Position numbers and translations under genes: made by a program
Source: a virus
Length of the DNA: 64,000 nt
Virus record (IMG/VR): IMGVR_UViG_3300042305_001483
Direction: 5' to 3' (one strand)
Shown: positions 2,227-46,205 of the stretch, piece by piece
Position numbering within the stretch: position 1 is the stretch's first letter
Layout of the letters: each line of letters starts with the position of its first letter
Notes under the pieces: model-generated
Told to the model about the DNA's origin: nothing
Databases searched by the model: none
The model's input: the letters and a program-made list of their open reading frames with translations, nothing else

Positions 2227-5200
2227 TTAATTTGAATTTCCGTAATACCATTTATCAGGAATTTCTGTAGAATGTCGCCTTATGAACTTAGATTGAATTG
2301 ACTCGGATTCCATCAACGATGTTGATGTATTCCAATAATTTCCTATTTTTTGTTCTATTTCAACTTTAGTTCTTAAAGTAAAATCTTCAACATGAATATT
2401 TAATTCAAAATTACCAGTTGATTCATTAAATTTAACAGTAAATTCTGGATCAAGTGTTCTTAAACTTGTAGACGTAGAATCGTATGCTAAATTGTAATCA
2501 TGTACTTTAGACGCAGTTTTTCTCAACAGTCTACCACCAAATTTAACAGAAATCTGATCGTTAAGGTACTGCTCTAAACCATTTGTTGTACTTAATATAA
2601 TACCATCTCCACCAGACTGATACATAGTTCCGGTGTTAATAACAAATGAACTTGAACTAATAGCAATCGTGTACGTTCCATTAGAATTTGTAACAGTATT
2701 AACAACATATGTTCCAGTGGCTTCAGATGTTATATGATACTGTTTCTTAATGGTATCAGTATAAGGAATAAATTGTTGAGGGCTTTGATCAAAGACTTTT
2801 GTTCCAACATCGGATATTTCTGCAGGAGAAGTACCCATAGTACCCCTTCTAAGTCCGCTTAGTACATTACTATCTTTAGAGAAAAATTCAATTCTTTCGC
2901 TATCGACGAATATAACTCCCGGAATATTTCTGTGGAAATTAGGAGGTATTAAACTTGAAGAATCTGTTACATGAATTTCAGTATCAGTTAACTTTAATTC
3001 TTTAGTTAATCTTGTACCGTAAAAATTAGATAATCTAGAATATGTGGTTCTATTAAAAATGTCATTAAATATTTTATATCCATAAACTAAATTAGATCGT
3101 AATGTTGTCGAAACATATGAAATAGTAATTTCGTCATCAGATTGAATACTAATAGAATTGTTTAGTGAAACTGTTCTAAAATCATCCAAAATAGTAAAAT
3201 CATTGTTAGCAATCAAATATTGTTTATTCAATGCTACCCAAACATATCTACTATCAGATACCGGCAATCCTAAAGTAAATTTTAGACCAGCATCGCCTTT
3301 AAATCTTTCCGTCCTCAACATCATTCCATCATAATCAGCAAATGATATAACTTTAACTGAACTAGAAGGTTGAATTGGAGTTGTAAAAATTATAGTGTTA
3401 TTATTAATTACATAATCAAAATTAACTAATGATTCAATTGCTAAAATTGCGCCGTTAGATGCTATTCCAGATGATATTGTCACTGTACCAGTAACACTAT
3501 TAATAGAATAATCAAAACCAGGAGCAAGCAATCGACCGTTTAAATAGACTTTAATATTTGAATTAGTATATGTTCCCGGAGGACGGCTTGTATTGTCAAT
3601 ATTGAAAGTTGTTGTCGATCCATCCAATTTATAGTAATTAACATCAGGAGGATTTAAACGCTTTCTGCCTTTAACTAAAGTAGTCGAATCTGGTTCATAT
3701 ACTTCAACAAATACTTGAGCACTTAACGGCTCAGTTGTTCCTAATAAATTTGTGACCAAAATACTAGAAGTAGGTGCTGCAATACTAAATTGTTCTTCAA
3801 ATATTTGACTAAATTTTCCAAAATTAGATTTTAAAAACCAAGCCTGGATTGTTCGTTTACTGTCTGCAATATTAGTTACCCTAACTGCCGCCCTCTTATT
3901 TTTTGGTCCCGCAGGTATTAGTTCGTAATTGCTAGAATTAACTTCACGACCGTCTATTGTCACATATACACTTCTTATATCATCAATAAACGCAGAACTA
4001 ATCAATGTCGCAGTACTCTGTCCATATTCAGTTAATAACGTAACCGAGTCTGCAACATATTCTCCGCCAATAGTTAATAAATTGTAACCTACTTTACCGT
4101 TAACATCTTGAGGCGCAATATACAATTCATCATTCATAACGTAAAATTGAGAAGAGGTTGTAAAGAAATACTCATCAACAACTCCACTGCTAGGAGGTTC
4201 ATATATTCTATCTAACATCTTTCCTTCGAAATTTACAGTTATATAAATTGATTCTTCTAAAGGTACTCCCAATTTAAACGATGATATAGCGTTTGCACTA
4301 ATAGGGACTATACCGGACATTGCAATCGGCGACGATTTATTTTCTTGAGTAAACACATTGATAGAAACAGATTCATATGTATTACCTTTAACATGCTCTT
4401 CCGGTGATTGACCAATATTTTGAGATATTAATCCACTACCGTCAATAACTAAATCACCAGGATTAATGCCAAGGGCTCCTACAAAATTTCCAGAACCGTT
4501 CCACGACCCTGCACTTATTTCAGTATCTAATTCATCAAAACTAAAGTTATCTTTCCAAAATTCTACAATTGGATATCCATACAAATCAACTTTTATTTTG
4601 TTTGTTACATTTGAATTTAGATTAAAAATTTCAACATTATATGTGTTATTTGAAGTAGTTGAAACATTATAATAACTTCCATACAATAGATCGTTTACAT
4701 ATATGGTAACCGTAGAAACACTGTTAAATAAAACATTTGTGTCATAGGCCACTGTTGAAGTATTAGATACTAAATTTTCAAAAGAATAAATGTTGTAAAG
4801 AGAATTTACATTAACTTCATTAAATACCGCCGGAACAGTTACCTTTGCAGTTACACCTAAAGTTTTTACTGTTGATGTTGTCAATAATGTAATAGCGTGT
4901 GTTCCGGTTCCTACAGCAGTAAATCTATCTGTTCCAGAATTAGTAACAATATATTTTCCGTCAAATCCTAAAATAGTTCCGTCGTCAACTCCGGATATTT
5001 CTATAATAGAACCACTAGTTATTTTTCCATTAAAATCTTCGGTAGTAAAAAATACTATATTTCCTTGAGTAGTTAAGGAATCAGATATAATTCGTTTTAA
5101 TCTGTATTCAGAATTTGCAATAGAAACTGTTTTAGTAGAAGTATTAACAGCAGATACTACTGCATCACTTCTTATATGAGATGTAGAAGTATTTGTTAAT

Positions 5201-28300: not shown

Positions 28301-29314
28301 ATGAACCTTTTTAAAAAGGTAGCCTGTTTTACAGATCTTCATGTTGGATTAAAAAGTAATTCACCGATACATCTTAAAGATTGCGAAGAGTTTATCGATT
28401 GGTTTATTTTAGAAGCCAAAAAAAATAATTGTGAGACTGGAATATTTTTAGGGGATTGGAGTCATAATCGAAATAGTTTAAATCTTGTAACACTAGATAC
28501 AAGTATTAAGTTATTAGAAAAACTCGGATCTTCTTTTGAACAATTTTTTTGGTTTCCGGGCAATCACGACTTATTTTACAAAGACAAAAGAGATGTCCAC
28601 AGTTCTGCCTTTGGAAGACATATTCCAGGCGTCACTGTAGTCGAAAATGTATGCACCATAGGTGATGTGACTTTAGTACCGTGGTTGGTAGGCGACGAAT
28701 GGAAAGATATCAGTAAAATTAAAAGTCGATATATGTTCGGTCATTTTGAACTACCGTTGTTTTACATGAACGCCATGGTTCAAATGCCAGACACCGGTGA
28801 ATTACAAGCAGAACATTTTAAAAATCAAGACTACGTTTTTAGTGGTCATTTTCATAAAAGACAAAGTAGAGGAAAAGTGCATTATATTGGTAATGCATTT
28901 CCTCATAATTTTGCAGACTCTTGGGACGACGAGCGCGGTATGATGATACTAGAATGGGGAGGTGAGCCACAATATATAAACTGGCTCGATTGTCCCAAAT
29001 TTAGACATGTTAAACTTTCAGATTTAATTGATAAGAAGGATGAAATTTTAAAATCTAAAATGTACTTAAAAGTAAATTTAGATATCGATATTAGTTTTGA
29101 AGAAGCAAATTTTATTAAAGAAACTTTCACTAAAGAACACGATATTAGAGAAATAAGTTTAATTCAAGATAAAATAAATCTTGAAGGGACTATTGATGAC
29201 AACCCAGATCAAAAATTTGAAAGTGTTGATCAAATTGTTTCAGAACAACTAGTTAATATTGATAGCAAAGATTTTGACAAAAACGTTTTATTAAAAATTT
29301 ACAACAGCATATGA
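28301..29314 (+). CDS. gp47: Recombination endonuclease subunit (Mre11/SbcD-like)
   Basis: Metallophosphoesterase motifs DLH, GD, GNHD, GHF, SGHFH. Confidence 0.92.
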   Translation: MNLFKKVACFTDLHVGLKSNSPIHLKDCEEFIDWFILEAKKNNCETGIFLGDWSHNRNSLNLVTLDTSIKLLEKLGSSFEQFFWFPGNHDLFYKDKRDVHSSAFGRHIPGVTVVENVCTIGDVTLVPWLVGDEWKDISKIKSRYMFGHFELPLFYMNAMVQMPDTGELQAEHFKNQDYVFSGHFHKRQSRGKVHYIGNAFPHNFADSWDDERGMMILEWGGEPQYINWLDCPKFRHVKLSDLIDKKDEILKSKMYLKVNLDIDISFEEANFIKETFTKEHDIREISLIQDKINLEGTIDDNPDQKFESVDQIVSEQLVNIDSKDFDKNVLLKIYNSI

Positions 29315-30141
29315 AAATAGTAGACTGTTTTATGTTTTTTAATGAATTTGAATTATTAAAAGGAAGATTACAATATCTAAAAGATCATGTCGACTTTTTT
29401 GTTCTTGTAGAATCGAACATTACACAAAGTGGTCATGAAAAACCTTTGCACTTTGCAGAAAATTTATTTAGGTATAGAGAATTTTTAGATAAAATTCTCT
29501 ATTTTCCCTTTATTGTAGATCGAGAAAAGTTTAATTATAATAAATTACCTTCCTGGGAAAGAGATTATGACACAGGGCCGTGGCAACAAGAAAATGCTCA
29601 AAGAAACTATATTAGCAAAGCATTAAATTTATTCGATGACCACGATATTATTATGATTAGTGACCTTGACGAAATTCCTCATAAAGAATGTATTAACATT
29701 GCCAAAGAATATTTTTCTAAAGGTTGGGATAGATTAGCAGTTGAGCAAGATCATTATGCATATAATTTTAGACAAAAACAGGTTGTCCCAATAAGAGGTA
29801 CTACAATCAGCACTAACAAAATTGTTAAAGAACTAAGCCCGCAACAACTAAGAAATGAAAAATACGGTTATGGTTTAATTTCTAGAGGCGGATGGCACCT
29901 AACTTATTGGGGTGATGTAAAAACTATTCAATATAAAATCGAAACATTTGCTCACCAAGAATTTAATCAAGACAAATTTAAAACACCCGAACACATCAAA
30001 GAAAAAATTTTAAAAGGTGAAGATATGTTCAATCGAAACAATCCTTATGTAAAGGTTGACCCTGAAAAAGAAATTCCCAAAGATGTTCTTGAAATTTTTG
30101 GTGAATTTGAAAGAAAAAACTTAGAATCAATCAATGTTTAA
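29311..30141 (+). CDS. Glycosyltransferase family 17 (MGAT3/GnT-III-like)
   Basis: DCFMFFNEFELL..RL, FVLVESN.T.SG..KPL.F, E..QRN, ISDLDEIP (DxD), GGWHLTY, KIETFAHQE. Confidence 0.8.
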   Translation: MKIVDCFMFFNEFELLKGRLQYLKDHVDFFVLVESNITQSGHEKPLHFAENLFRYREFLDKILYFPFIVDREKFNYNKLPSWERDYDTGPWQQENAQRNYISKALNLFDDHDIIMISDLDEIPHKECINIAKEYFSKGWDRLAVEQDHYAYNFRQKQVVPIRGTTISTNKIVKELSPQQLRNEKYGYGLISRGGWHLTYWGDVKTIQYKIETFAHQEFNQDKFKTPEHIKEKILKGEDMFNRNNPYVKVDPEKEIPKDVLEIFGEFERKNLESINV

Positions 30142-31912
30142 ACTAAAAACTATTACTGTTAAAAATTTCATGAGCGTGGGTAATCAAACTCAGGCAGTAA
30201 ATTTTAATAAAGATCATTTAACTCTTGTGCTTGGATCAAACTTAGACCTTGGCGGAGACGATACTGGTTCAAGAAACGGTACCGGTAAAACTACAATTAT
30301 TAATGCATTAAGTTACGCATTGTACGGCCAAGCATTAACTAATATTAAAAAAGAAAATCTTATTAATAAAATCAACGGTAAAAACATGTTAGTTACTGTT
30401 GACTTTGAAAAAAACAACGCACACTATCGAATTGAGCGTGGCAGAAAATCTAACATTTTAAAATTGTTTGTTAATAACAAAGAATTAAAAGCCAAAGATG
30501 AAGACGAAAGTCAAGGAGATAGTAGAGAAACTCAAAAAACAATTGAAGAAATGCTCGAAATGAGTCATTCAATGTTTAAACATCTTGTTGCCCTTAATAC
30601 ATACACTGAACCGTTCCTTGCAATGAGAGCGGCAGATCAACGAGAAATTATTGAACAACTTCTTGGAATTACTATTCTTTCTACAAAAGCAGAAAATTTA
30701 AAAATTGAAATCAAAAATACCAAAGATAAAATTTTAGCAGAAAATTTAAAAATTGAAACTATTAAAACATCAAACGAAAACATACAAAAAAGTATTGATA
30801 GTTTGCAATTAAAAAGTAATCTATGGGATACTAAACATCAACAAGAATTGGAAAGTTTAGGTCGAGCCATTGTTAATCTCGAATCAGTAGATATTATTCA
30901 AGAATTAGAAAATCATAAAAATTTAAAACTTTGGGAAGAACTTGATACAAAAATTCGAGGTCTTAACAAACAAAAAGCAACCCTAGAAAGCGCAGTTATA
31001 CAGGCTCAAAAAACTAGAGACAAATATGTTCGAGAAGTAGAGTCTCTATCTAGTAAAACTTGCCCGGCGTGTGAACAAGAGTTGCACGATCATAAACACC
31101 AAGAAATGACTGCAACTGCTATGAATAATTTAGCCGATGCACAAACTTACTTTGATAAGGTAGTAAATGATTTAGAAAAAATATCAGAAGAAATTAGCGA
31201 AAAAAATGTTTTTCCTAAACCTAACACATTTTACGAAACAGAAGCAGAAGCACTGGGACACAAAAATAATCTCGATAATTTAGAAAAATCTTTGTTAGAA
31301 AAAGCAGACGAAAAAAATCCTTATCAAGAACAAATAGATGATTTAAAGAAAACTGCAATTCAAACAGTCGATTGGACTGCCATTAACGATCTAACAAAAT
31401 TAAAAGATCATCAAGAGTTTTTATTAAAATTATTAACTAATAAAGATAGTTTTATCAGAAAGAAAATTATAGATCAAAATTTAAATTACCTAAACAAAAG
31501 ATTAACCTATTACATTGACAAGTTAGGGCTTCCTCACAAGGTTGTGTTTCAAAACGATTTAACTGTAGAAATTACTCAATTAGGTCAAGAATTAGACTTT
31601 GATAATTTAAGCAGGGGAGAACGAAATAGACTGATCCTTTCAATGAGTTTTGCTTTTAGAGATGTTTGGGAAGGACTGTACCAAAGTATCAATTTGTTGT
31701 TTATTGATGAATTGGTTGATGCAGGAATGGACTTTGCCGGCGTTGAAGCCAGTTTAGCGGTATTGAAAAAAATGGCCAGGGATAGAAATAAGAATATATA
31801 CTTAATATCTCATAAAGATGAATTGATTGGACGAGTTAACAACGTATTAAAAGTAACAAAAGAAAACGGATTTACAAGTTATTCAAATGATATTGATTAT
31901 GTCGAACATTGA
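30134..31912 (+). CDS. gp46: Recombination ATPase subunit (Rad50/SbcC-like)
   Basis: Walker A NGTGKTT, zinc hook CPAC, signature LSRGE, Walker B LLFIDE, ISH motif, coiled coils. Confidence 0.93.
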   Translation: MFKLKTITVKNFMSVGNQTQAVNFNKDHLTLVLGSNLDLGGDDTGSRNGTGKTTIINALSYALYGQALTNIKKENLINKINGKNMLVTVDFEKNNAHYRIERGRKSNILKLFVNNKELKAKDEDESQGDSRETQKTIEEMLEMSHSMFKHLVALNTYTEPFLAMRAADQREIIEQLLGITILSTKAENLKIEIKNTKDKILAENLKIETIKTSNENIQKSIDSLQLKSNLWDTKHQQELESLGRAIVNLESVDIIQELENHKNLKLWEELDTKIRGLNKQKATLESAVIQAQKTRDKYVREVESLSSKTCPACEQELHDHKHQEMTATAMNNLADAQTYFDKVVNDLEKISEEISEKNVFPKPNTFYETEAEALGHKNNLDNLEKSLLEKADEKNPYQEQIDDLKKTAIQTVDWTAINDLTKLKDHQEFLLKLLTNKDSFIRKKIIDQNLNYLNKRLTYYIDKLGLPHKVVFQNDLTVEITQLGQELDFDNLSRGERNRLILSMSFAFRDVWEGLYQSINLLFIDELVDAGMDFAGVEASLAVLKKMARDRNKNIYLISHKDELIGRVNNVLKVTKENGFTSYSNDIDYVEH

Positions 31913-32189
31913 ATTAGAAAAATATAAAAATTTATACTCTCAACTAATTTCAGAGTTTGCTACTTTACACAATTCTCACCAACTCTTTATAAGAACCAAA
32001 GGTAGAGATCCTGCTATGGTTTCTAGAAGGAGTTTAAGATCTATTGCAAAAATTGCTAATGAAATGAAAAGACAAGGTCAAAAAGTATCACAAGAATTTA
32101 TGGCAAACAAAAGATTAGAAAAAATTCGTCTTAGAGAAGAAAAAGCAACGAAAAAGACGAAAAAACATGACTTGGCTATATCAAAATAA
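31899..32189 (+). CDS. Small basic helical hypothetical protein (possibly nucleic-acid binding)
   Basis: K/R-rich; overlaps both neighbours; start at 31899 or 31887. Confidence 0.5.
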   Translation: MSNIELEKYKNLYSQLISEFATLHNSHQLFIRTKGRDPAMVSRRSLRSIAKIANEMKRQGQKVSQEFMANKRLEKIRLREEKATKKTKKHDLAISK

Positions 32190-32592
32190 TACCATAACAG
32201 AATTACCCGAAGATTGTGTAGGCTTTGTTTATATCATTACTAACAAAATAACAAATAGAAAATACATTGGCAAAAAATTGGCAAAATTTAGTAAAACGAC
32301 CTACAAGACTGTAAAGTTAAAGAACGGCACAAAAAAGAAAAAGAAAATTCGAAGCAAAATAGACAGCGACTGGCAAGATTATTATGGCTCAAACGAACAA
32401 TTGAATAAAGATGTAGTACAACTAGGCACAGAAAATTTTATAAGAGAAATACTTTATTTTTGTAAATCTAAAGCAGAATGCAGTTACATTGAGGCAAGAG
32501 AACAATTTTCAAGGCGAGTTTTAGAAACAAACGAATATTATAACGGGCATATACAAGTCCGTGTCCATGGCTCACACATATTAAAATCTTAA
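32167..32592 (+). CDS. Compact GIY-YIG (Seg-like) endonuclease
   Basis: GFVYIITN...KYIGKK, YYGS, FIREIL, E in YIEAREQ, YYN; 141 aa with a basic KKKKKIR insertion and no appended DNA-binding domain. Confidence 0.8.
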   Translation: MTWLYQNNTITELPEDCVGFVYIITNKITNRKYIGKKLAKFSKTTYKTVKLKNGTKKKKKIRSKIDSDWQDYYGSNEQLNKDVVQLGTENFIREILYFCKSKAECSYIEAREQFSRRVLETNEYYNGHIQVRVHGSHILKS

Positions 32593-32599
32593 GGCACTT

Positions 32600-33032
32600 T
32601 TAAGCGGTAAAGGCTCAGCGTAGGCTAATTTCTTATGCCCAATACCTGGATCTCGGATCGCAGGGAACGGAAAACTCTCGCCGCTGTGAGTACTCAACCA
32701 CTACCCGAAAGGATGAGGATCGCTACTAAGCCCTGCGATTTGGTTGTTTGAAGAGGATTGAATAGGCAAAAAGAAGGGTAATTCCCTAACGGACATATAG
32801 GTGATAGCATGCCTAGATGCTCCTGCCGTCGAATAAAGACGCTGCTCGTGGTACCGGTCGACCGCCACTGTAATGCAGTAATGCTATGTGACTGTGCAAC
32901 TCAGATGATGTTCAGTTATTTTTTTGCCCTGCTCGGGCAAAGAGTGACCACTTAATCTAGATGATATATCTCTCTTAACTATCTAAATATGCTTCGAGTC
33001 CTTAGACGAAGAAGCATACGAACGCAGTTCGT
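32600..33032 (+). ncRNA. Candidate large structured non-coding RNA (family unassigned; strand inferred)
   Basis: No ORF in the track; 165/340 G+C (48.5%) over 32601-32940; many stems with G-U pairs on the + strand, a GAAA tetraloop and a possible pseudoknot (see findings). Confidence 0.6.
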
Positions 33033-33033
33033 T

Positions 33034-33041
33034 TATAAATA
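33034..33041 (+). promoter_or_regulatory. T4-type late promoter TATAAATA
   Basis: Exact T4 late consensus upstream of the 500-aa ORF. Confidence 0.75.
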
Positions 33042-33051
33042 GTGATATAGA

Positions 33052-34554
33052 GTGGATAAAATTATGCCTTTAACTTTTTCTCAAAGATTAATTGTAGAAG
33101 AAAAATTAAACGAAAGCCGAATTCTCTTAGAGAATATATGCCGAGGTTTGACTGAAGAACAAAATACAATAATTAAAAGAATACATAGAGAGTTTTTACC
33201 TTTAATTGAAGCAACATTAACTACAGATCAAATATCTCAATTATTTAAAAATGTAGAGCAATCAGCAACTGCTAGTGGATCTAACAGAACTGGATTGGGA
33301 AAAGCCGTAGATGTTGCAAAATTGCCTGTCCAAGCAGTTCAAAAAGTTAACGATATTATTAACAAAGCAGGGCAGTGGGCGCAAAACACTAAACCTGTAC
33401 AGGCGTTTGATCAAAAATTTGAAGAACTAAAAGCAAAGATTAGTTCTAAGTTTCCAAATTTAACTCAAAACTTAACTCAAGCAGGAGAATGGGCTAAAGC
33501 AAATCCTGGAAAAACCGCAGTAATTATTGGTGTATTAACTGCTGTGGCATCATTAGCAGGAGGACCTTTAGGTGGTGCTATCGCAGGTCAAATACTGAGA
33601 GGCACTACTGAATTAATGAAAGGTGAAAAACTTTCGACTGCAATTGGCAAGGGTGCTAAAGCAGCCGCAGTTGGTGCTTTAGCCGGTTGGAGTATTGATA
33701 AAATTGGAGATTTCTTAGGCAGTGGGTTAAAAATGGTTGCTGATAACTTATTTCCTGGGGCACGTAGACTTAATCTTTCCTTTATGGTTAGTGGTACGGG
33801 ACCTTCTACATTTCAAAATTTACGAGATGTAATAGGCAAACCTGAAGATTTAGAACCTATACGTGGTGCATGGAATCAAGCAGCAGAGGCTTGGAGGAAC
33901 GGTCAATATAGTCAAGCAGAAGCATTGTTTCAGCAGGCAAAAGATGCAGCAGCCAAATTAGCCGATCCTGGTTATGCTGCTCAATTAGCACAAGATGAAA
34001 ATGCAAGACAAGCAATTGTAGATGGTGCTAAAAGTGTAATGGCTGCGTCTGACGCTTTGGCAGTGGCTGCACAAGGCGCTGTTACAGGTGCGGTTGGAAA
34101 TCAAAAACCAACGCAGCAATCAACGCCGGAAAGTTTATCTTTTCAACAAATTAAAAAAATATTCTATACTGTAGATAGAAAATATCTAGTTCAAGAAGGT
34201 ATTGCAGATACAATTAAACAATTTGGTTCAAATTTAACTACTAAAATTACCGCCGATAAGTTAATGAAAGCATGGAAGGCGGCAGGAAGTCCGACAGACA
34301 GCAATGCTATTGCTGATATTTTAAAAAATGCCGGAGTTGACGATTCTATTATTTCGTCAACTTTTCAATCTATGAATATTGCATCAACTCAATCTTCACC
34401 GGTATCTCAAACATCAAGTCAGCCATCTACAAAACTTACTGTGGCTCAAATTAATCAAGCAATTAAAATTTTAAGATTACGAGATTTACAAAGTATTCAA
34501 AAAACAGTAAATAACGTATTATCGAAGAGATCTAATCAACCTACTACTCCTTGA
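33052..34554 (+). CDS. Putative internal head/ejection protein
   Basis: Late promoter; N-terminal LxE sites (LNE, LLE, LIE); Ala/Gly-rich hydrophobic segment TAVIIGVLTAVASLAGGPLGGAIAG; start may be ATG 33064. Confidence 0.45.
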   Translation: MDKIMPLTFSQRLIVEEKLNESRILLENICRGLTEEQNTIIKRIHREFLPLIEATLTTDQISQLFKNVEQSATASGSNRTGLGKAVDVAKLPVQAVQKVNDIINKAGQWAQNTKPVQAFDQKFEELKAKISSKFPNLTQNLTQAGEWAKANPGKTAVIIGVLTAVASLAGGPLGGAIAGQILRGTTELMKGEKLSTAIGKGAKAAAVGALAGWSIDKIGDFLGSGLKMVADNLFPGARRLNLSFMVSGTGPSTFQNLRDVIGKPEDLEPIRGAWNQAAEAWRNGQYSQAEALFQQAKDAAAKLADPGYAAQLAQDENARQAIVDGAKSVMAASDALAVAAQGAVTGAVGNQKPTQQSTPESLSFQQIKKIFYTVDRKYLVQEGIADTIKQFGSNLTTKITADKLMKAWKAAGSPTDSNAIADILKNAGVDDSIISSTFQSMNIASTQSSPVSQTSSQPSTKLTVAQINQAIKILRLRDLQSIQKTVNNVLSKRSNQPTTP

Positions 34555-34564
34555 AGGATATAAA

Positions 34565-35275
34565 ATGCGTATTGAAGAACTTATTATTGAAAACCAACAA
34601 CTTGATGAACTAACAGCAGCGCAAGTCGGACAAGGAATTGGTAGAGCTGCTACTGCTACTGGTACAGCATTAGGTGCAACTGCTGGCGGAGCAGTTCAAG
34701 CAGGTAAAAATTTCTGGCAAGGAGTAAAGCAAGGTTGGCAATCAGGAAAAAGTTCAGTCGGCGGTGGAGCAGCACCTGCTGCGGGAACAGCACCTACAAC
34801 TGGGGCAGCACCTGCAACAGCACCTGCTGCGGGAACAGCACCTACAACTGGGGCAGCACCTGCTGCGGGAACAGCACCTGCTGCGGGAACAGCACCTGCT
34901 GCGGGAACAGCACCTGCTGCGGGAACAGCACCTGCTGCGGGAACAGCACCTGCAACAGCACCTGCTGCGGGAACAGCACCTACAACTGGGGCAGCACCAA
35001 AAGTTACCGTAACACAAATTAATCAAGCAATACCAACTTTAAGAACAAGAGATTTGCAAAGTGTTAAGAAAAATGTAGACGCTATTGTTGCAAAGAAAAG
35101 CAGAGGAGCAGCGCCTGCAACTGGAGCAGCACCTACAACAGCGCCTGCAACTGGGACACCTAATTTACAAGTACAACAAGGTGGTAAGAAGAAAACTGCT
35201 GCCTTGTTACAACCTAAACAACAAGCAGTTCCTGAATCAAAATTTTACAGTAAATTTTTAAATATGGACATTTAA
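34565..35275 (+). CDS. Putative internal head protein with Ala/Pro/Thr linker
   Basis: MRIEELIIENQQLDE leader, APAAGT repeats, and a domain shared with the upstream ORF. Confidence 0.45.
   Translation: MRIEELIIENQQLDELTAAQVGQGIGRAATATGTALGATAGGAVQAGKNFWQGVKQGWQSGKSSVGGGAAPAAGTAPTTGAAPATAPAAGTAPTTGAAPAAGTAPAAGTAPAAGTAPAAGTAPAAGTAPATAPAAGTAPTTGAAPKVTVTQINQAIPTLRTRDLQSVKKNVDAIVAKKSRGAAPATGAAPTTAPATGTPNLQVQQGGKKKTAALLQPKQQAVPESKFYSKFLNMDI
34769..34999 (+). repeat. 18-bp tandem repeat (gcacctgctgcgggaaca, APAAGT) with APTTGA/APAT variants
   Basis: Directly visible tandem copies. Confidence 0.95.
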
Positions 35276-45475: not shown

Positions 45476-45554
45476 ATTAAATACAGAGTCTAGAGTATTA
45501 TGCGGAGGTCCAACCGCGTATGGCCTAGAACGCCAAATATAAGGAGAAAAACAA

Positions 45555-46205
45555 ATGGGACGTCCTATTAAATCAAAATATTTCGGAGTACCTAAAGGAA
45601 CAGGTACAGGTGGTGAAGGTGTTAGTTTAGTTACACTTGGAACAAACCCTGAATCTACATTAACAGTTACCGTTGTTTTCAGTGCACCGGACTTGCCGGG
45701 CGGAACAACTGCTGCTGGTACTGCTGTAAAAACTGGAAACACAGTAACAAGCGTAACAGTAGATTCTGCAGGATCTGGATACCTAACAGTACCATCAGTT
45801 TCGTTTACTGGAACTAGTATGAGTGTTATTGGAAGTGCAACTGCTACATTAACAACTAGCGTAAGCAACGTTATTCGTGCTACTGCATTTTTAACAGGCG
45901 GTTCTGCATTAGTTGCAGACATCGACGAACAGGTAGCAAGTAAAAAATACCGTGTTCAAACAGCAAATGGTACAGATGTAGCAAGATTAGTCAGTACTAA
46001 TACAGATCAACTAGTTGCAGGTCAGATGAATATTCTTGCAACAGATGGAAATGGAAGTACTTATTGGGTTAAAAAATTAACTGCCCGCAGAGCCGTAGTT
46101 GTTCAATCTACAGCCAGTGGAAGTTTTGTCTTTAACAGCGGTGCTTCTGTTGGATGGAATTTAGATGCAGCAAACAGTACTGATGTCTTAGTTGACAATC
46201 ATTGA
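45555..46205 (+). CDS. Putative head decoration/structural protein
   Basis: Own late promoter (TTAAATA 45477-45483), AAGGAG SD and terminator; Ig-like GSGY..P segment. Confidence 0.5.
   Translation: MGRPIKSKYFGVPKGTGTGGEGVSLVTLGTNPESTLTVTVVFSAPDLPGGTTAAGTAVKTGNTVTSVTVDSAGSGYLTVPSVSFTGTSMSVIGSATATLTTSVSNVIRATAFLTGGSALVADIDEQVASKKYRVQTANGTDVARLVSTNTDQLVAGQMNILATDGNGSTYWVKKLTARRAVVVQSTASGSFVFNSGASVGWNLDAANSTDVLVDNH

What the first reader, a model, noticed from the sequence alone, without database searches (positions are those of the whole stretch)
32167..33032. Minimal GIY-YIG nuclease followed by a ~450-nt structured non-coding RNA: candidate nuclease-RNA system
Seen: the longest ORF-free gap in this densely coding window begins right at the GIY-YIG stop and is 48.5% GC over 32601-32940, whereas other gaps are mostly A/T. 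Predicted stems: cctg-gatc/gatc-g-cagg (32645-32664); caacca/tggttg (32695-32700 with 32741-32746) enclosing a cc-GAAA-gg tetraloop and ggatcgc/gcgattt; aggg/ccct (32775-32787); gga-cat-taggt/gccta-atg-tcc (32791-32823), whose loop region atagcat (32804-32810) complements atgctat (32881-32887), a possible pseudoknot; gtgg/ccac; tttgccc/gggcaaa; tatgcttc/gaagcata; acgaac/gttcgt. ggatcgc occurs twice (32655, 32717), so two folds compete for ccctgcgattt. Known: Seg-type homing endonucleases normally carry an extra DNA-binding domain, while this 141-aa protein has only the catalytic core plus a KKKKKIR insertion; IscB and TnpB use adjacent structured RNAs as guides. Inference: an uncharacterised phage ncRNA or ribozyme, possibly forming an RNP with (or guiding) the nuclease.
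Basis: partly seen in the sequence, partly recalled or inferred. Interest (0 to 1): 0.85.

Follow-up and report, generated by a model that had tools for sequence, protein, structure and literature searches.

The report
Extended Polynucleobacter-1 twin-box phage RNA
The gene-free stretch behind a small nuclease gene of this uncultured freshwater T4-like phage encodes a real, knotted non-coding RNA of about 430 bases; only its first third was catalogued (Rfam Polynucleobacter-1), its job is unknown, and the evidence argues against it guiding the nuclease.

Summary
Window 32593-33051 is the longest internal ORF-free gap (459 nt, 45% GC against 34% for the window). It holds a conserved, strongly covarying RNA spanning about 32603-33033.

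On 58 diverse homologues, 97 proposed pairs are 88.6% paired, against 36-45% in slid controls, and 78 pairs show compensatory changes.

The first third (32613-32749) is the known Rfam family Polynucleobacter-1 (RF01718, 101 bits). Its 2010 authors already noted that it lies downstream of the gene family I show to be this GIY-YIG. The remaining ~290 nt are uncatalogued. They contain two further pseudoknots and two identical 7-nt "twin boxes" (AGATGAT) that change in lockstep.

The nuclease-RNA partnership is not supported:
- The GIY-YIG family is widespread without the RNA.
- Ten close relatives in another context lack it.
- One phage has a PD-(D/E)XK nuclease at that position instead.
- About 120 Polynucleobacter-type loci carry the RNA with no such nuclease.
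- No nuclease residue tracks the boxes.

This scan had already found the same RNA in at least 62 other genomes. Its function remains unknown.

The parts
32167..32592 (+). 141-aa stand-alone GIY-YIG nuclease gene (PHROG 447; cyanophage 'T4-GC 213', often mislabelled 'NAD synthetase')
32603..33033 (+). Whole conserved structured RNA, about 430 nt (ends inferred, not mapped)
   Evidence: Conservation runs from about 32603 to 33042 in 115 homologues. The structure is 88.6% paired, 78 of 97 pairs show compensatory changes, and 0 of 500 shuffles reach the observed values. G.U cells number 372 against 152 A.C cells, so the + strand is the one that folds.
32613..32749 (+). 5' domain = Rfam RF01718 Polynucleobacter-1 (helices P1-P6)
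   Evidence: cmscan gives 101 bits against a gathering score of 37, E=1e-20, covering the full model 1-141.
32603..32608 (+). PK0 5' strand. It pairs with the P3 loop at 32680-32685 and lies 5' of the Rfam model.
   Evidence: Helix 1 is 79.5% paired, with 4 of 6 pairs changed on both sides. The pairing is also kept in the Polynucleobacter clade (CUACUG/CAGUAG).
32765..32827 (+). GGC/GCC-closed junction holding hairpins 32775-87 and 32791-32823
   Evidence: Helices 9-11. In the long hairpin, all 11 pairs show changes on both sides.
32804..32810 (+). PK1 5' strand (hairpin loop), pairing with 32881-32887
Evidence: Helix 12 is 98.3% paired, with compensatory changes at 7 of 7 pairs.
32828..32832 (+). 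PK2 5' strand, pairing with 32858-32862 (loop of the GUGG/CCAC hairpin)
   Evidence: Helix 13 is 95.5% paired. Mutual information for 32830-32860 shows C-G 52 and U-A 50.
32842..32878 (+). Hairpin He (32842-45/75-78 and 32848-51/65-68) with the invariant GGUAC..GG....ACCGCC core
   Evidence: Helices 14-16; invariant columns.
32903..32909 (+). Twin box 1 (AGAUGAU), preceded by the fixed CUC
   Evidence: Identical to box 2 in 103 of 103 phage-clade RNAs, with 9 variants. The box changes at least 35 times on the tree.
32923..32941 (+). Hairpin Hf (UUUGCCC/GGGCAAA) between the twin boxes
   Evidence: Helices 17-18; compensatory variants are visible.
32959..32965 (+). Twin box 2 (AGAUGAU), preceded by the fixed UCU
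32989..33017 (+). Hairpin Hg (tandem G.A internal loop; GNRA-type loop in most homologues)
   Evidence: Helices 19-21; alignment.
33018..33032 (+). Terminal hairpin Ht, a probable intrinsic terminator (weak U run here, UUUU in the Polynucleobacter clade)
   Evidence: Helix 22, with 5 of 6 pairs compensatory. The sequence GCUCGCUUUU is seen.
33034..33041 (+). TATAAATA, the T4-type late-promoter consensus for the downstream 500-aa gene
   Evidence: Read directly from the sequence. TATAAATA is present at this position in 37 of 107 homologues, against 2% expected.

Best explanation
The gap encodes a discrete non-coding RNA gene of about 430 nt on the + strand. It is the full-length form of the Polynucleobacter-1 RNA.

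Anatomy:
- A 5' domain, which is the Rfam model, locked by an extra pseudoknot (PK0).
- An uncatalogued 3' domain with two pseudoknots (PK1, PK2) around an invariant GGUAC...ACCGCC core.
- Two duplicated ~26-nt modules that flank a hairpin. Each displays the same 7-nt box in a segment with no supported pairing partner.
- Two closing hairpins, the last of which acts as a terminator just before a late promoter.

In this lineage of T4-like freshwater phages the RNA sits directly behind a conserved small GIY-YIG nuclease gene. It is probably transcribed with or right after that gene (inferred).

I infer that it works as an independent trans-acting RNA, not as a partner or guide of the nuclease. 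The twin boxes must stay identical to each other but are free to change sequence. They are most likely read by base pairing or homology, twice, by one still-unknown partner nucleic acid. The existence, structure and distribution of the RNA are shown; transcription, the ends and the function are not.
For: - Rfam RF01718 hit at 101 bits.
- Conservation across more than 100 IMG/VR contigs out to about 33040.
- Covariation statistics and mutual information for PK1 and PK2.
- No coding signal and a + strand G.U excess.
- Terminal hairpin followed by TATAAATA. The same RNA ends in hairpin+UUUU in bacterial-context copies.
- Twin boxes identical in 103 of 103 RNAs with 9 variants and at least 35 switches. 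Flips occur on otherwise identical flanks.
- No complement in cis.
- Independence from the nuclease, on the nuclease side: 491 cultured phage records have a GIY homologue; none gave a blastn match to the RNA, and three checked with the covariance model have none. Ten close GIY genes (75-78% identity) in an nrdB context lack the RNA.
- Independence, on the RNA side: L082 has an 87-bit RF01718 RNA 30 nt after a PDDEXK_15 nuclease gene. At least 120 Polynucleobacter-type loci carry the full architecture with no GIY-family ORF.
- No GIY residue tracks the box variant.
Against:
- Within the T4-like clade the linkage is very tight. About 70 RNA loci found through an RNA-only pattern had enough upstream DNA to judge, and all but one have the GIY gene 10-60 nt upstream on the same strand, while insertions occur on either side of the pair. 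Some lineage-specific functional coupling therefore cannot be excluded.
- In L082 the replacement gene is again a nuclease.
- The partner that reads the boxes was not found: it is not in cis and is not enriched in the window.
- In the Polynucleobacter clade, 12 of 117 loci have boxes differing at one position.
Confidence: 0.6

Rival explanations
1. Nuclease-RNA system: the RNA binds the 141-aa GIY-YIG protein and guides or regulates it, as omega-RNAs do for IscB/TnpB. The twin boxes would act as guide-like segments.
For: - Near-constant adjacency in the T4-like clade, with a constant short spacer while the flanks vary.
- The protein has no DNA-binding domain and carries a basic beta-hairpin.
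- The boxes evolve fast, as guides do.
Against: - The GIY family is widespread without the RNA. Ten close relatives (75-78% identity) lack it.
- The RNA occurs after a PD-(D/E)XK nuclease and with no such nuclease in 120 loci.
- No GIY residue co-varies with the boxes: maximum normalised MI is 0.39, below the gp46 background of 0.68.
- The long Lys-rich hairpin is present in RNA-less genes and shortened in some RNA-linked ones.
- The boxes are only 7-10 nt.
Confidence: 0.04
2. Selfish-gene parking: the GIY-YIG gene (and the PD-(D/E)XK gene in L082) is a free-standing homing-type endonuclease that has settled beside a highly conserved RNA gene whose DNA supplies its target. T4 SegB among the tRNA genes would be the precedent (from my knowledge).
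For: - Two unrelated nuclease folds occupy the same slot.
- GIY divergence is only loosely coupled to gp46 divergence: Spearman 0.42, with GIY identity of 57-99% among phages whose gp46 is 80-90% identical.
- Near-identical GIY genes sit in a different genomic context.
- The best structural match is the I-TevI catalytic domain.
Against: - The gene is near-universal rather than sporadic in the clade.
- It is more conserved than gp46 in many lineages, for example GIY 75-78% against gp46 44-52%.
- It has intact catalytic residues throughout a family of about 2000 clusters, most of them 135-150 aa with no DNA-binding domain.
- No empty sites were seen.
Confidence: 0.15
3. Cis-regulatory leader of the downstream genes, as Rfam and Weinberg et al. 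2010 tentatively flagged.
For: The Rfam family table marks it as a possible cis-regulator.
Against: - A covarying terminal hairpin and a separate late promoter lie between the RNA and the next gene.
- The downstream genes differ among homologues and are sometimes on the opposite strand.
- The 2010 supplement itself says the RNAs lie downstream of a gene family.
Confidence: 0.05
4. Replication-related RNA or DNA element: an origin transcript or primer, or iteron-like direct repeats, placed next to the gp46/gp47 recombination genes. An earlier agent proposed a priming role for a related RNA.
For: - Its position beside the gp47/gp46 homologues.
- Two direct repeats 47-60 bp apart.
- Association with a clamp-loader-like ATPase and a recombinase in the Polynucleobacter element.
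Against: - The covariation preserves strand-specific RNA-type pairs, including G.U, which a duplex DNA site does not need.
- Nothing tested here bears directly on priming.
- The spacing between the repeats is variable.
Confidence: 0.1

Closest known systems
Polynucleobacter-1 RNA motif (Rfam RF01718; Weinberg et al. 2010, Genome Biol 11:R31, PMC2864571)
   Same: Positions 32613-32749 match the whole 141-position model at 101 bits. The habitat (freshwater) is the same, and so is the position downstream of the GOS11034/PSSM2_218 gene family.
   Different: The catalogued model covers only about one third of the conserved RNA. It lacks PK0, the ~290-nt 3' domain with PK1 and PK2, the twin boxes and the terminal hairpins. 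The 2010 authors found it in no purified phage and did not recognise the upstream gene as a GIY-YIG nuclease. Some homologues keep the 3' domain without a detectable RF01718 domain.
Large 'ornate' bacterial and phage ncRNAs of unknown function (GOLLD, ROOL, OLE, raiA) (from my knowledge)
   Same: A long, multi-pseudoknotted, highly conserved RNA carried by phages or mobile elements, with no known biochemical role.
   Different: No sequence or model similarity: there are no Rfam hits to those families. It is smaller than GOLLD or ROOL. The twin identical boxes have no counterpart that I know of.
IscB/TnpB omega-RNA (HEARO) systems (from my knowledge)
   Same: A nuclease gene immediately next to a large structured RNA.
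   Different: There the pairing is obligatory and the RNA carries a guide at the element boundary. Here the nuclease has a GIY-YIG fold, each partner occurs widely without the other, and no guide-target relation was found.
T4 Seg endonucleases (SegE, or SegB beside tRNA genes), the I-TevI catalytic domain and T4 EndoII (DenA)

Membership tests
Rfam RF01718 Polynucleobacter-1 RNA | Covariance-model score at or above the curated gathering score (37 bits) over the full model | tested here: met
   101 bits, model positions 1-141 of 141, E=1e-20.
Rfam RF01718 Polynucleobacter-1 RNA | Model helices P1-P6 kept by compensatory changes in relatives | tested here: met
   Helices 2-8 are 89-100% paired and most pairs show changes on both sides.
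GIY-YIG nuclease superfamily (Pfam PF19835 SegE_GIY-YIG) | Profile match above the cut-off, and the GIY / YIG / Arg / Glu / Asn catalytic residues | tested here: met
   106.6 bits against a cut-off of 25. Y22, Y33, G35, E109 and N126 are invariant and R93 is at least 90% conserved in 54 diverse relatives.
GIY-YIG nuclease superfamily (Pfam PF19835 SegE_GIY-YIG) | GIY-YIG alpha/beta fold | tested here: met
   [not shown]
Seg-type free-standing homing endonuclease | A C-terminal DNA-binding domain attached to the catalytic domain | tested here: not met
   The protein is 141 aa and the Pfam domain covers residues 3-129. Most of the 150 best cluster representatives are 130-165 aa.
Seg-type free-standing homing endonuclease | Sporadic presence or absence among close relatives (empty sites) | tested here: not met
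   The gene is present upstream of all but one of about 70 RNA loci that have enough upstream DNA. Homologues are found in 491 cultured phage records.
RNA-guided nuclease system (IscB/TnpB-like logic) | Obligatory co-occurrence of nuclease and RNA | tested here: not met
   The nuclease occurs without the RNA. The RNA occurs without this nuclease.
RNA-guided nuclease system (IscB/TnpB-like logic) | Physical binding, and RNA-dependent target cleavage | not testable with these tools
   This needs biochemistry. The complex predictor takes no RNA.
Group I intron carrying a GIY-YIG ORF | Intron core fold, and conserved flanking exons of one interrupted gene | tested here: not met
   There is no Rfam intron hit even at E up to 5. 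The genes on both sides vary among homologues.
Intrinsic terminator at the RNA 3' end | A GC-containing hairpin followed by a U run | tested here: inconclusive
   The hairpin 33018-32 covaries. It is followed only by UUUAU here, and the scan did not call it on the + strand. Homologues and the Polynucleobacter clade have UUUU.

The most novel reading that the evidence does not exclude
The twin boxes are a homology-reading device: two displayed copies of one freely evolving 7-10-nt word that must match each other. They would bring together or sense two copies of a complementary nucleic acid, or allow a strand or template jump between them. That would make the full-length RNA the founding member of a new functional class of phage/mobile-element RNA. 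In the T4-like clade the adjacent small GIY-YIG (or PD-(D/E)XK) nuclease might act on what the RNA holds.
Probability: 0.1. Interest if true: 0.85.

Novelty: new variant of a known kind. Interest (0 to 1): 0.55.

Why it matters
Large, multi-pseudoknotted RNAs conserved across hundreds of phage genomes are rare, and several turned out to be new biochemistry. HEARO, for example, became the IscB omega-RNA.

Here a 15-year-old orphan Rfam motif proves to be only the first third of a ~430-nt RNA. That RNA is shared by lytic T4-like freshwater phages and by an integrase-bearing element in Polynucleobacter chromosomes.

Its two boxes stay identical while switching sequence dozens of times. This is an unusual evolutionary signature that points to a readable code and gives a direct experimental handle: mutate one box, or both together.

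For annotation, the result also corrects two points:
- The Rfam model should be extended.
- The widespread phage 'NAD synthetase' (PHROG 447, T4-GC 213) is a small GIY-YIG nuclease.

Tried and rejected
2. blastn of the region against 50,697 cultured phage records: no match.
3. Genome-collection scan with a strict 5'-domain pattern: 19 hits, all chance matches by nhmmer. The Polynucleobacter copy does not fit that exact pattern.
4. Viral-contig scan for the Polynucleobacter-type box region: 0 hits.
5. phmmer of the nuclease against PDB sequences: no GIY-YIG hit. Foldseek against PDB: nothing at E <= 0.001. The wide structural alignment then found the fold.
6. A cis partner for the boxes: none in the RNA. 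None in the flanks of the Polynucleobacter loci. The reverse complement is not enriched in the window.
7. Pairing between the two modules, or of each module with its own downstream sequence: no consistent helix. Only box1[1-4] with the invariant AUCU pairs at all (83-100%), and without covariation.
8. Rolling-circle or concatemer ORF idea (DRT2-like): the unit is 47-60 nt with no mod-3 bias, and an open frame occurs in 40% against 27% of shuffles. Not supported.
9. Alternative helix 32834-39 with 32921-26 (switch): suggested by a three-way correlation at 32835/32925/32939, but not distinguishable from shuffles on alignment A1.
10. Proteins shared between the T4-like and Polynucleobacter contexts: none.
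11. A promoter inside the 3' end of the nuclease gene: the A/T-rich motif there is confounded by conserved codons and has variable spacing. Undecided.
12. tRNA or tmRNA: none in the window.

Full report
**What is at the coordinates**

The window is from an uncultured T4-like phage. Upstream of the finding lie:
- a metallophosphoesterase-like ORF (28301-29314; I read it as gp47/Mre11-like from its motifs);
- an SMC/Rad50-like ORF (30134-31912; Pfam AAA_23/SMC_N);
- a 100-aa ORF;
- the 141-aa ORF 32167-32592.

A T4 baseplate-family gene lies downstream on the other strand. The stretch 32593-33051 is the longest internal ORF-free gap of the window (459 nt). Its GC content is 45%, rising to 48.5% over 32601-32940, against 34% for the window.

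**The protein**

The ORF matches Pfam PF19835 (SegE_GIY-YIG) at E=1.3e-30 over the whole profile, and PHROG 447. An exhaustive profile search found 2017 clusters at 50% identity with E <= 0.001. Most of the best 150 are 130-165 aa, so the "minimal" single-domain form is normal for this family.

In 54 diverse relatives Y22, Y33, G35, K37, E109 and N126 are invariant and R93 nearly so. The AlphaFold model is confident (pLDDT 96.4), and the Lys-rich insertion forms a long beta-hairpin.

Homologues occur in 491 cultured phage records, mostly cyanomyophages, usually mislabelled "NAD synthetase". The closest is Methylophilales phage Melnitz at 51% identity.

**The RNA is real and larger than catalogued**

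cmscan places Rfam RF01718 (Polynucleobacter-1) at 32613-32749 with 101 bits against a gathering score of 37, covering the full model.

I collected relatives in two independent ways: an RNA-only pattern scan of IMG/VR, and a search with the protein. blastn and a 115-sequence alignment show conservation from about 32603 to about 33042. The region 32823-32962 is more conserved than the Rfam part.

I proposed a structure from the Rfam alignment plus mutual information and helix scans. I then scored it on an independent MAFFT alignment of 58 diverse sequences (A1):
- 97 pairs in 22 helices;
- 88.6% of cells paired, against 36-45% when partners are slid by 1-3 columns;
- 78 pairs with changes on both sides;
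- 0 of 500 shuffles reaching the observed values.

Two further pseudoknots emerged. PK0 (32603-08 with the P3 loop 32680-85) starts 5' of the Rfam model. PK2 pairs 32828-32 with 32858-62.

G.U cells outnumber A.C cells 372 to 152, so it is the + strand that folds. No ORF in the gap shows codon periodicity or a mod-3 length preference.

The RNA closes with two covarying hairpins. The last (33018-32) is followed at once by TATAAATA, the T4 late-promoter consensus. That motif is present at this place in 37 of 107 homologues against 2% expected. No other Rfam family matched, and no tRNA or tmRNA was found.

**Twin boxes**

Positions 32903-09 and 32959-65 are both AGAUGAU. Across 103 phage-clade RNAs the two boxes are identical in every case, although nine variants exist. 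Identity-type correlation also covers the 2-3 nt before the fixed CUC (module 1) and UCU (module 2).

On a tree built without the box columns, the box changes at least 35 times, and its first position at least 23 times. Flips occur on otherwise identical flanks.

I could not find what reads the boxes:
- No column of the RNA is complementary to them or tracks them.
- The reverse complement is not enriched in the window.
- No consistent helix links the modules.
- A concatemer-ORF idea failed.

**Is the RNA tied to the nuclease?**

Within the T4-like clade the linkage is striking. About 70 loci found by the RNA-only pattern had enough upstream DNA to judge. All but one have the GIY gene 10-60 nt upstream on the same strand, while variable genes are inserted on either side of the pair.

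Four lines of evidence argue against a functional dependency.

(a) The nuclease occurs without the RNA.
- Ten loci with GIY genes 75-78% identical to the window's lie after nrdB and an aldolase. They are followed directly by another ORF.
- Melnitz, P-HM1 and S-SRM01 have the gene but no RF01718 anywhere in their genomes.
- No cultured phage matched the RNA by blastn.

(b) The RNA occurs without this nuclease.
- L082 has an 87-bit RF01718 RNA 30 nt after a PF24608 PD-(D/E)XK nuclease gene.
- In L191 and L194 a 238-aa ORF separates the GIY gene from the RNA.
- The Stockholm file of Weinberg et al. shows the Polynucleobacter chromosome copy (NC_009379) with the same 3' architecture and the boxes AGCGAAA.
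- A metagenome scan for that version returned at least 120 loci, none with a GIY-family ORF.
- Those loci are flanked by DUF6641 on the opposite strand, a small tyrosine recombinase and an AAA ATPase. RF01718 scores 91 bits there, and the RNA ends in a hairpin plus UUUU.
- No flanking protein is shared between the two contexts.

(c) No GIY residue follows the box variant. The maximum normalised MI is 0.39, below the 0.68 phylogenetic background seen in gp46.

(d) The long Lys-rich hairpin is present in RNA-less genes and shortened in some RNA-linked ones.

GIY and gp46 divergence are only loosely coupled (Spearman 0.42). Together with the nuclease swap in L082, this keeps a "mobile nuclease parked beside a conserved RNA gene" reading alive as a minority rival.

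**What was already known**

The only paper in the searched library that describes the motif is Weinberg et al. 2010. Its supplement states that the RNAs lie downstream of genes of family GOS11034, with possible homology to PSSM2_218, and that no purified phage carried the motif.

PSSM2_218 is the "NAD synthetase" T4-GC 213 gene. It aligns with the window's GIY-YIG at E=5e-17. The gene-RNA adjacency is therefore a published observation, although the gene's nature was not recognised.

Notes from this scan show that other agents reached the same "extended Polynucleobacter-1, twin-box" description on at least 62 other genomes. I re-derived it independently here.

**Verdict**

It is a new, much longer variant of a known orphan RNA family.

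The most likely working model is an independent trans-acting RNA whose twin boxes are read by pairing or homology. This model is inferred, with no expression or binding data.

Modularity is worth noting. Several loci keep the 3' twin-box domain with no detectable RF01718 domain (L147, L167, L183, L191), so the uncatalogued part may be the functional core.

Noticed in passing
window 45477-45557 (+): A second Rfam hit: freshwater-2 RNA (RF02980), 51.9 bits against a gathering score of 49.9. It is another orphan freshwater motif in the same phage.
   Followed up: no
L082:1495-2184 (-): In this relative the slot directly upstream of the RNA holds a 172-aa PF24608 PD-(D/E)XK nuclease (PHROG 244, 'RusA-like resolvase') instead of the GIY-YIG gene. 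The RNA scores 86.9 bits for RF01718.
   Followed up: partly
L225:3715-4110 and about 120 loci L219-L338; NC_009379 near 2,130,700: Polynucleobacter-type copies of the full RNA lie in an integrase/AAA-ATPase/DUF6641 context. The box is AGCGAAA, and RGCGAAA recurs up to four times (He loop, both boxes, Hg). In 12 of 117 loci the two boxes differ at one position, which are the only mismatched pairs seen.
   Followed up: partly
window 32835 with 32925 and 32939: A loop base of AUAAAGA is always identical to the 3'-strand base of one Hf pair and complementary to its 5'-strand base (A/U-A, G/C-G, U/A-U). This could mean a base triple or an alternative helix (a switch). The pair-count test on A1 was inconclusive.
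   Followed up: partly
L147, L167, L183 (about 3420-3770); L191:4309-4557; L173/L176/L179: Some relatives keep the 3' twin-box domain, but the ~130 nt before it are not recognised as RF01718. L173, L176 and L179 carry a very divergent version with the box ACATGAA. The 5' domain seems replaceable.
   Followed up: partly
window 33052-34554 and 34565-35275: The 500-aa and 236-aa proteins downstream have no Pfam or PHROG family. They share a similar C-terminal segment (…V(A/T)QINQAI…R(L/T)RDLQS(I/V)…). The 236-aa protein is largely Ala/Pro/Thr/Gly tandem repeats. Their presence and order vary among relatives.
   Followed up: no
[not shown]
   Followed up: partly
window 32593-32602 and homologues: A conserved (U)AGGC(A/U)(C/A)…UAA motif sits 10-15 nt before PK0, partly overlapping the nuclease stop codon. 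It resembles the AGGCUAAUUUC loop of P1. Its role (transcript start, or a pairing) is unknown.
   Followed up: no
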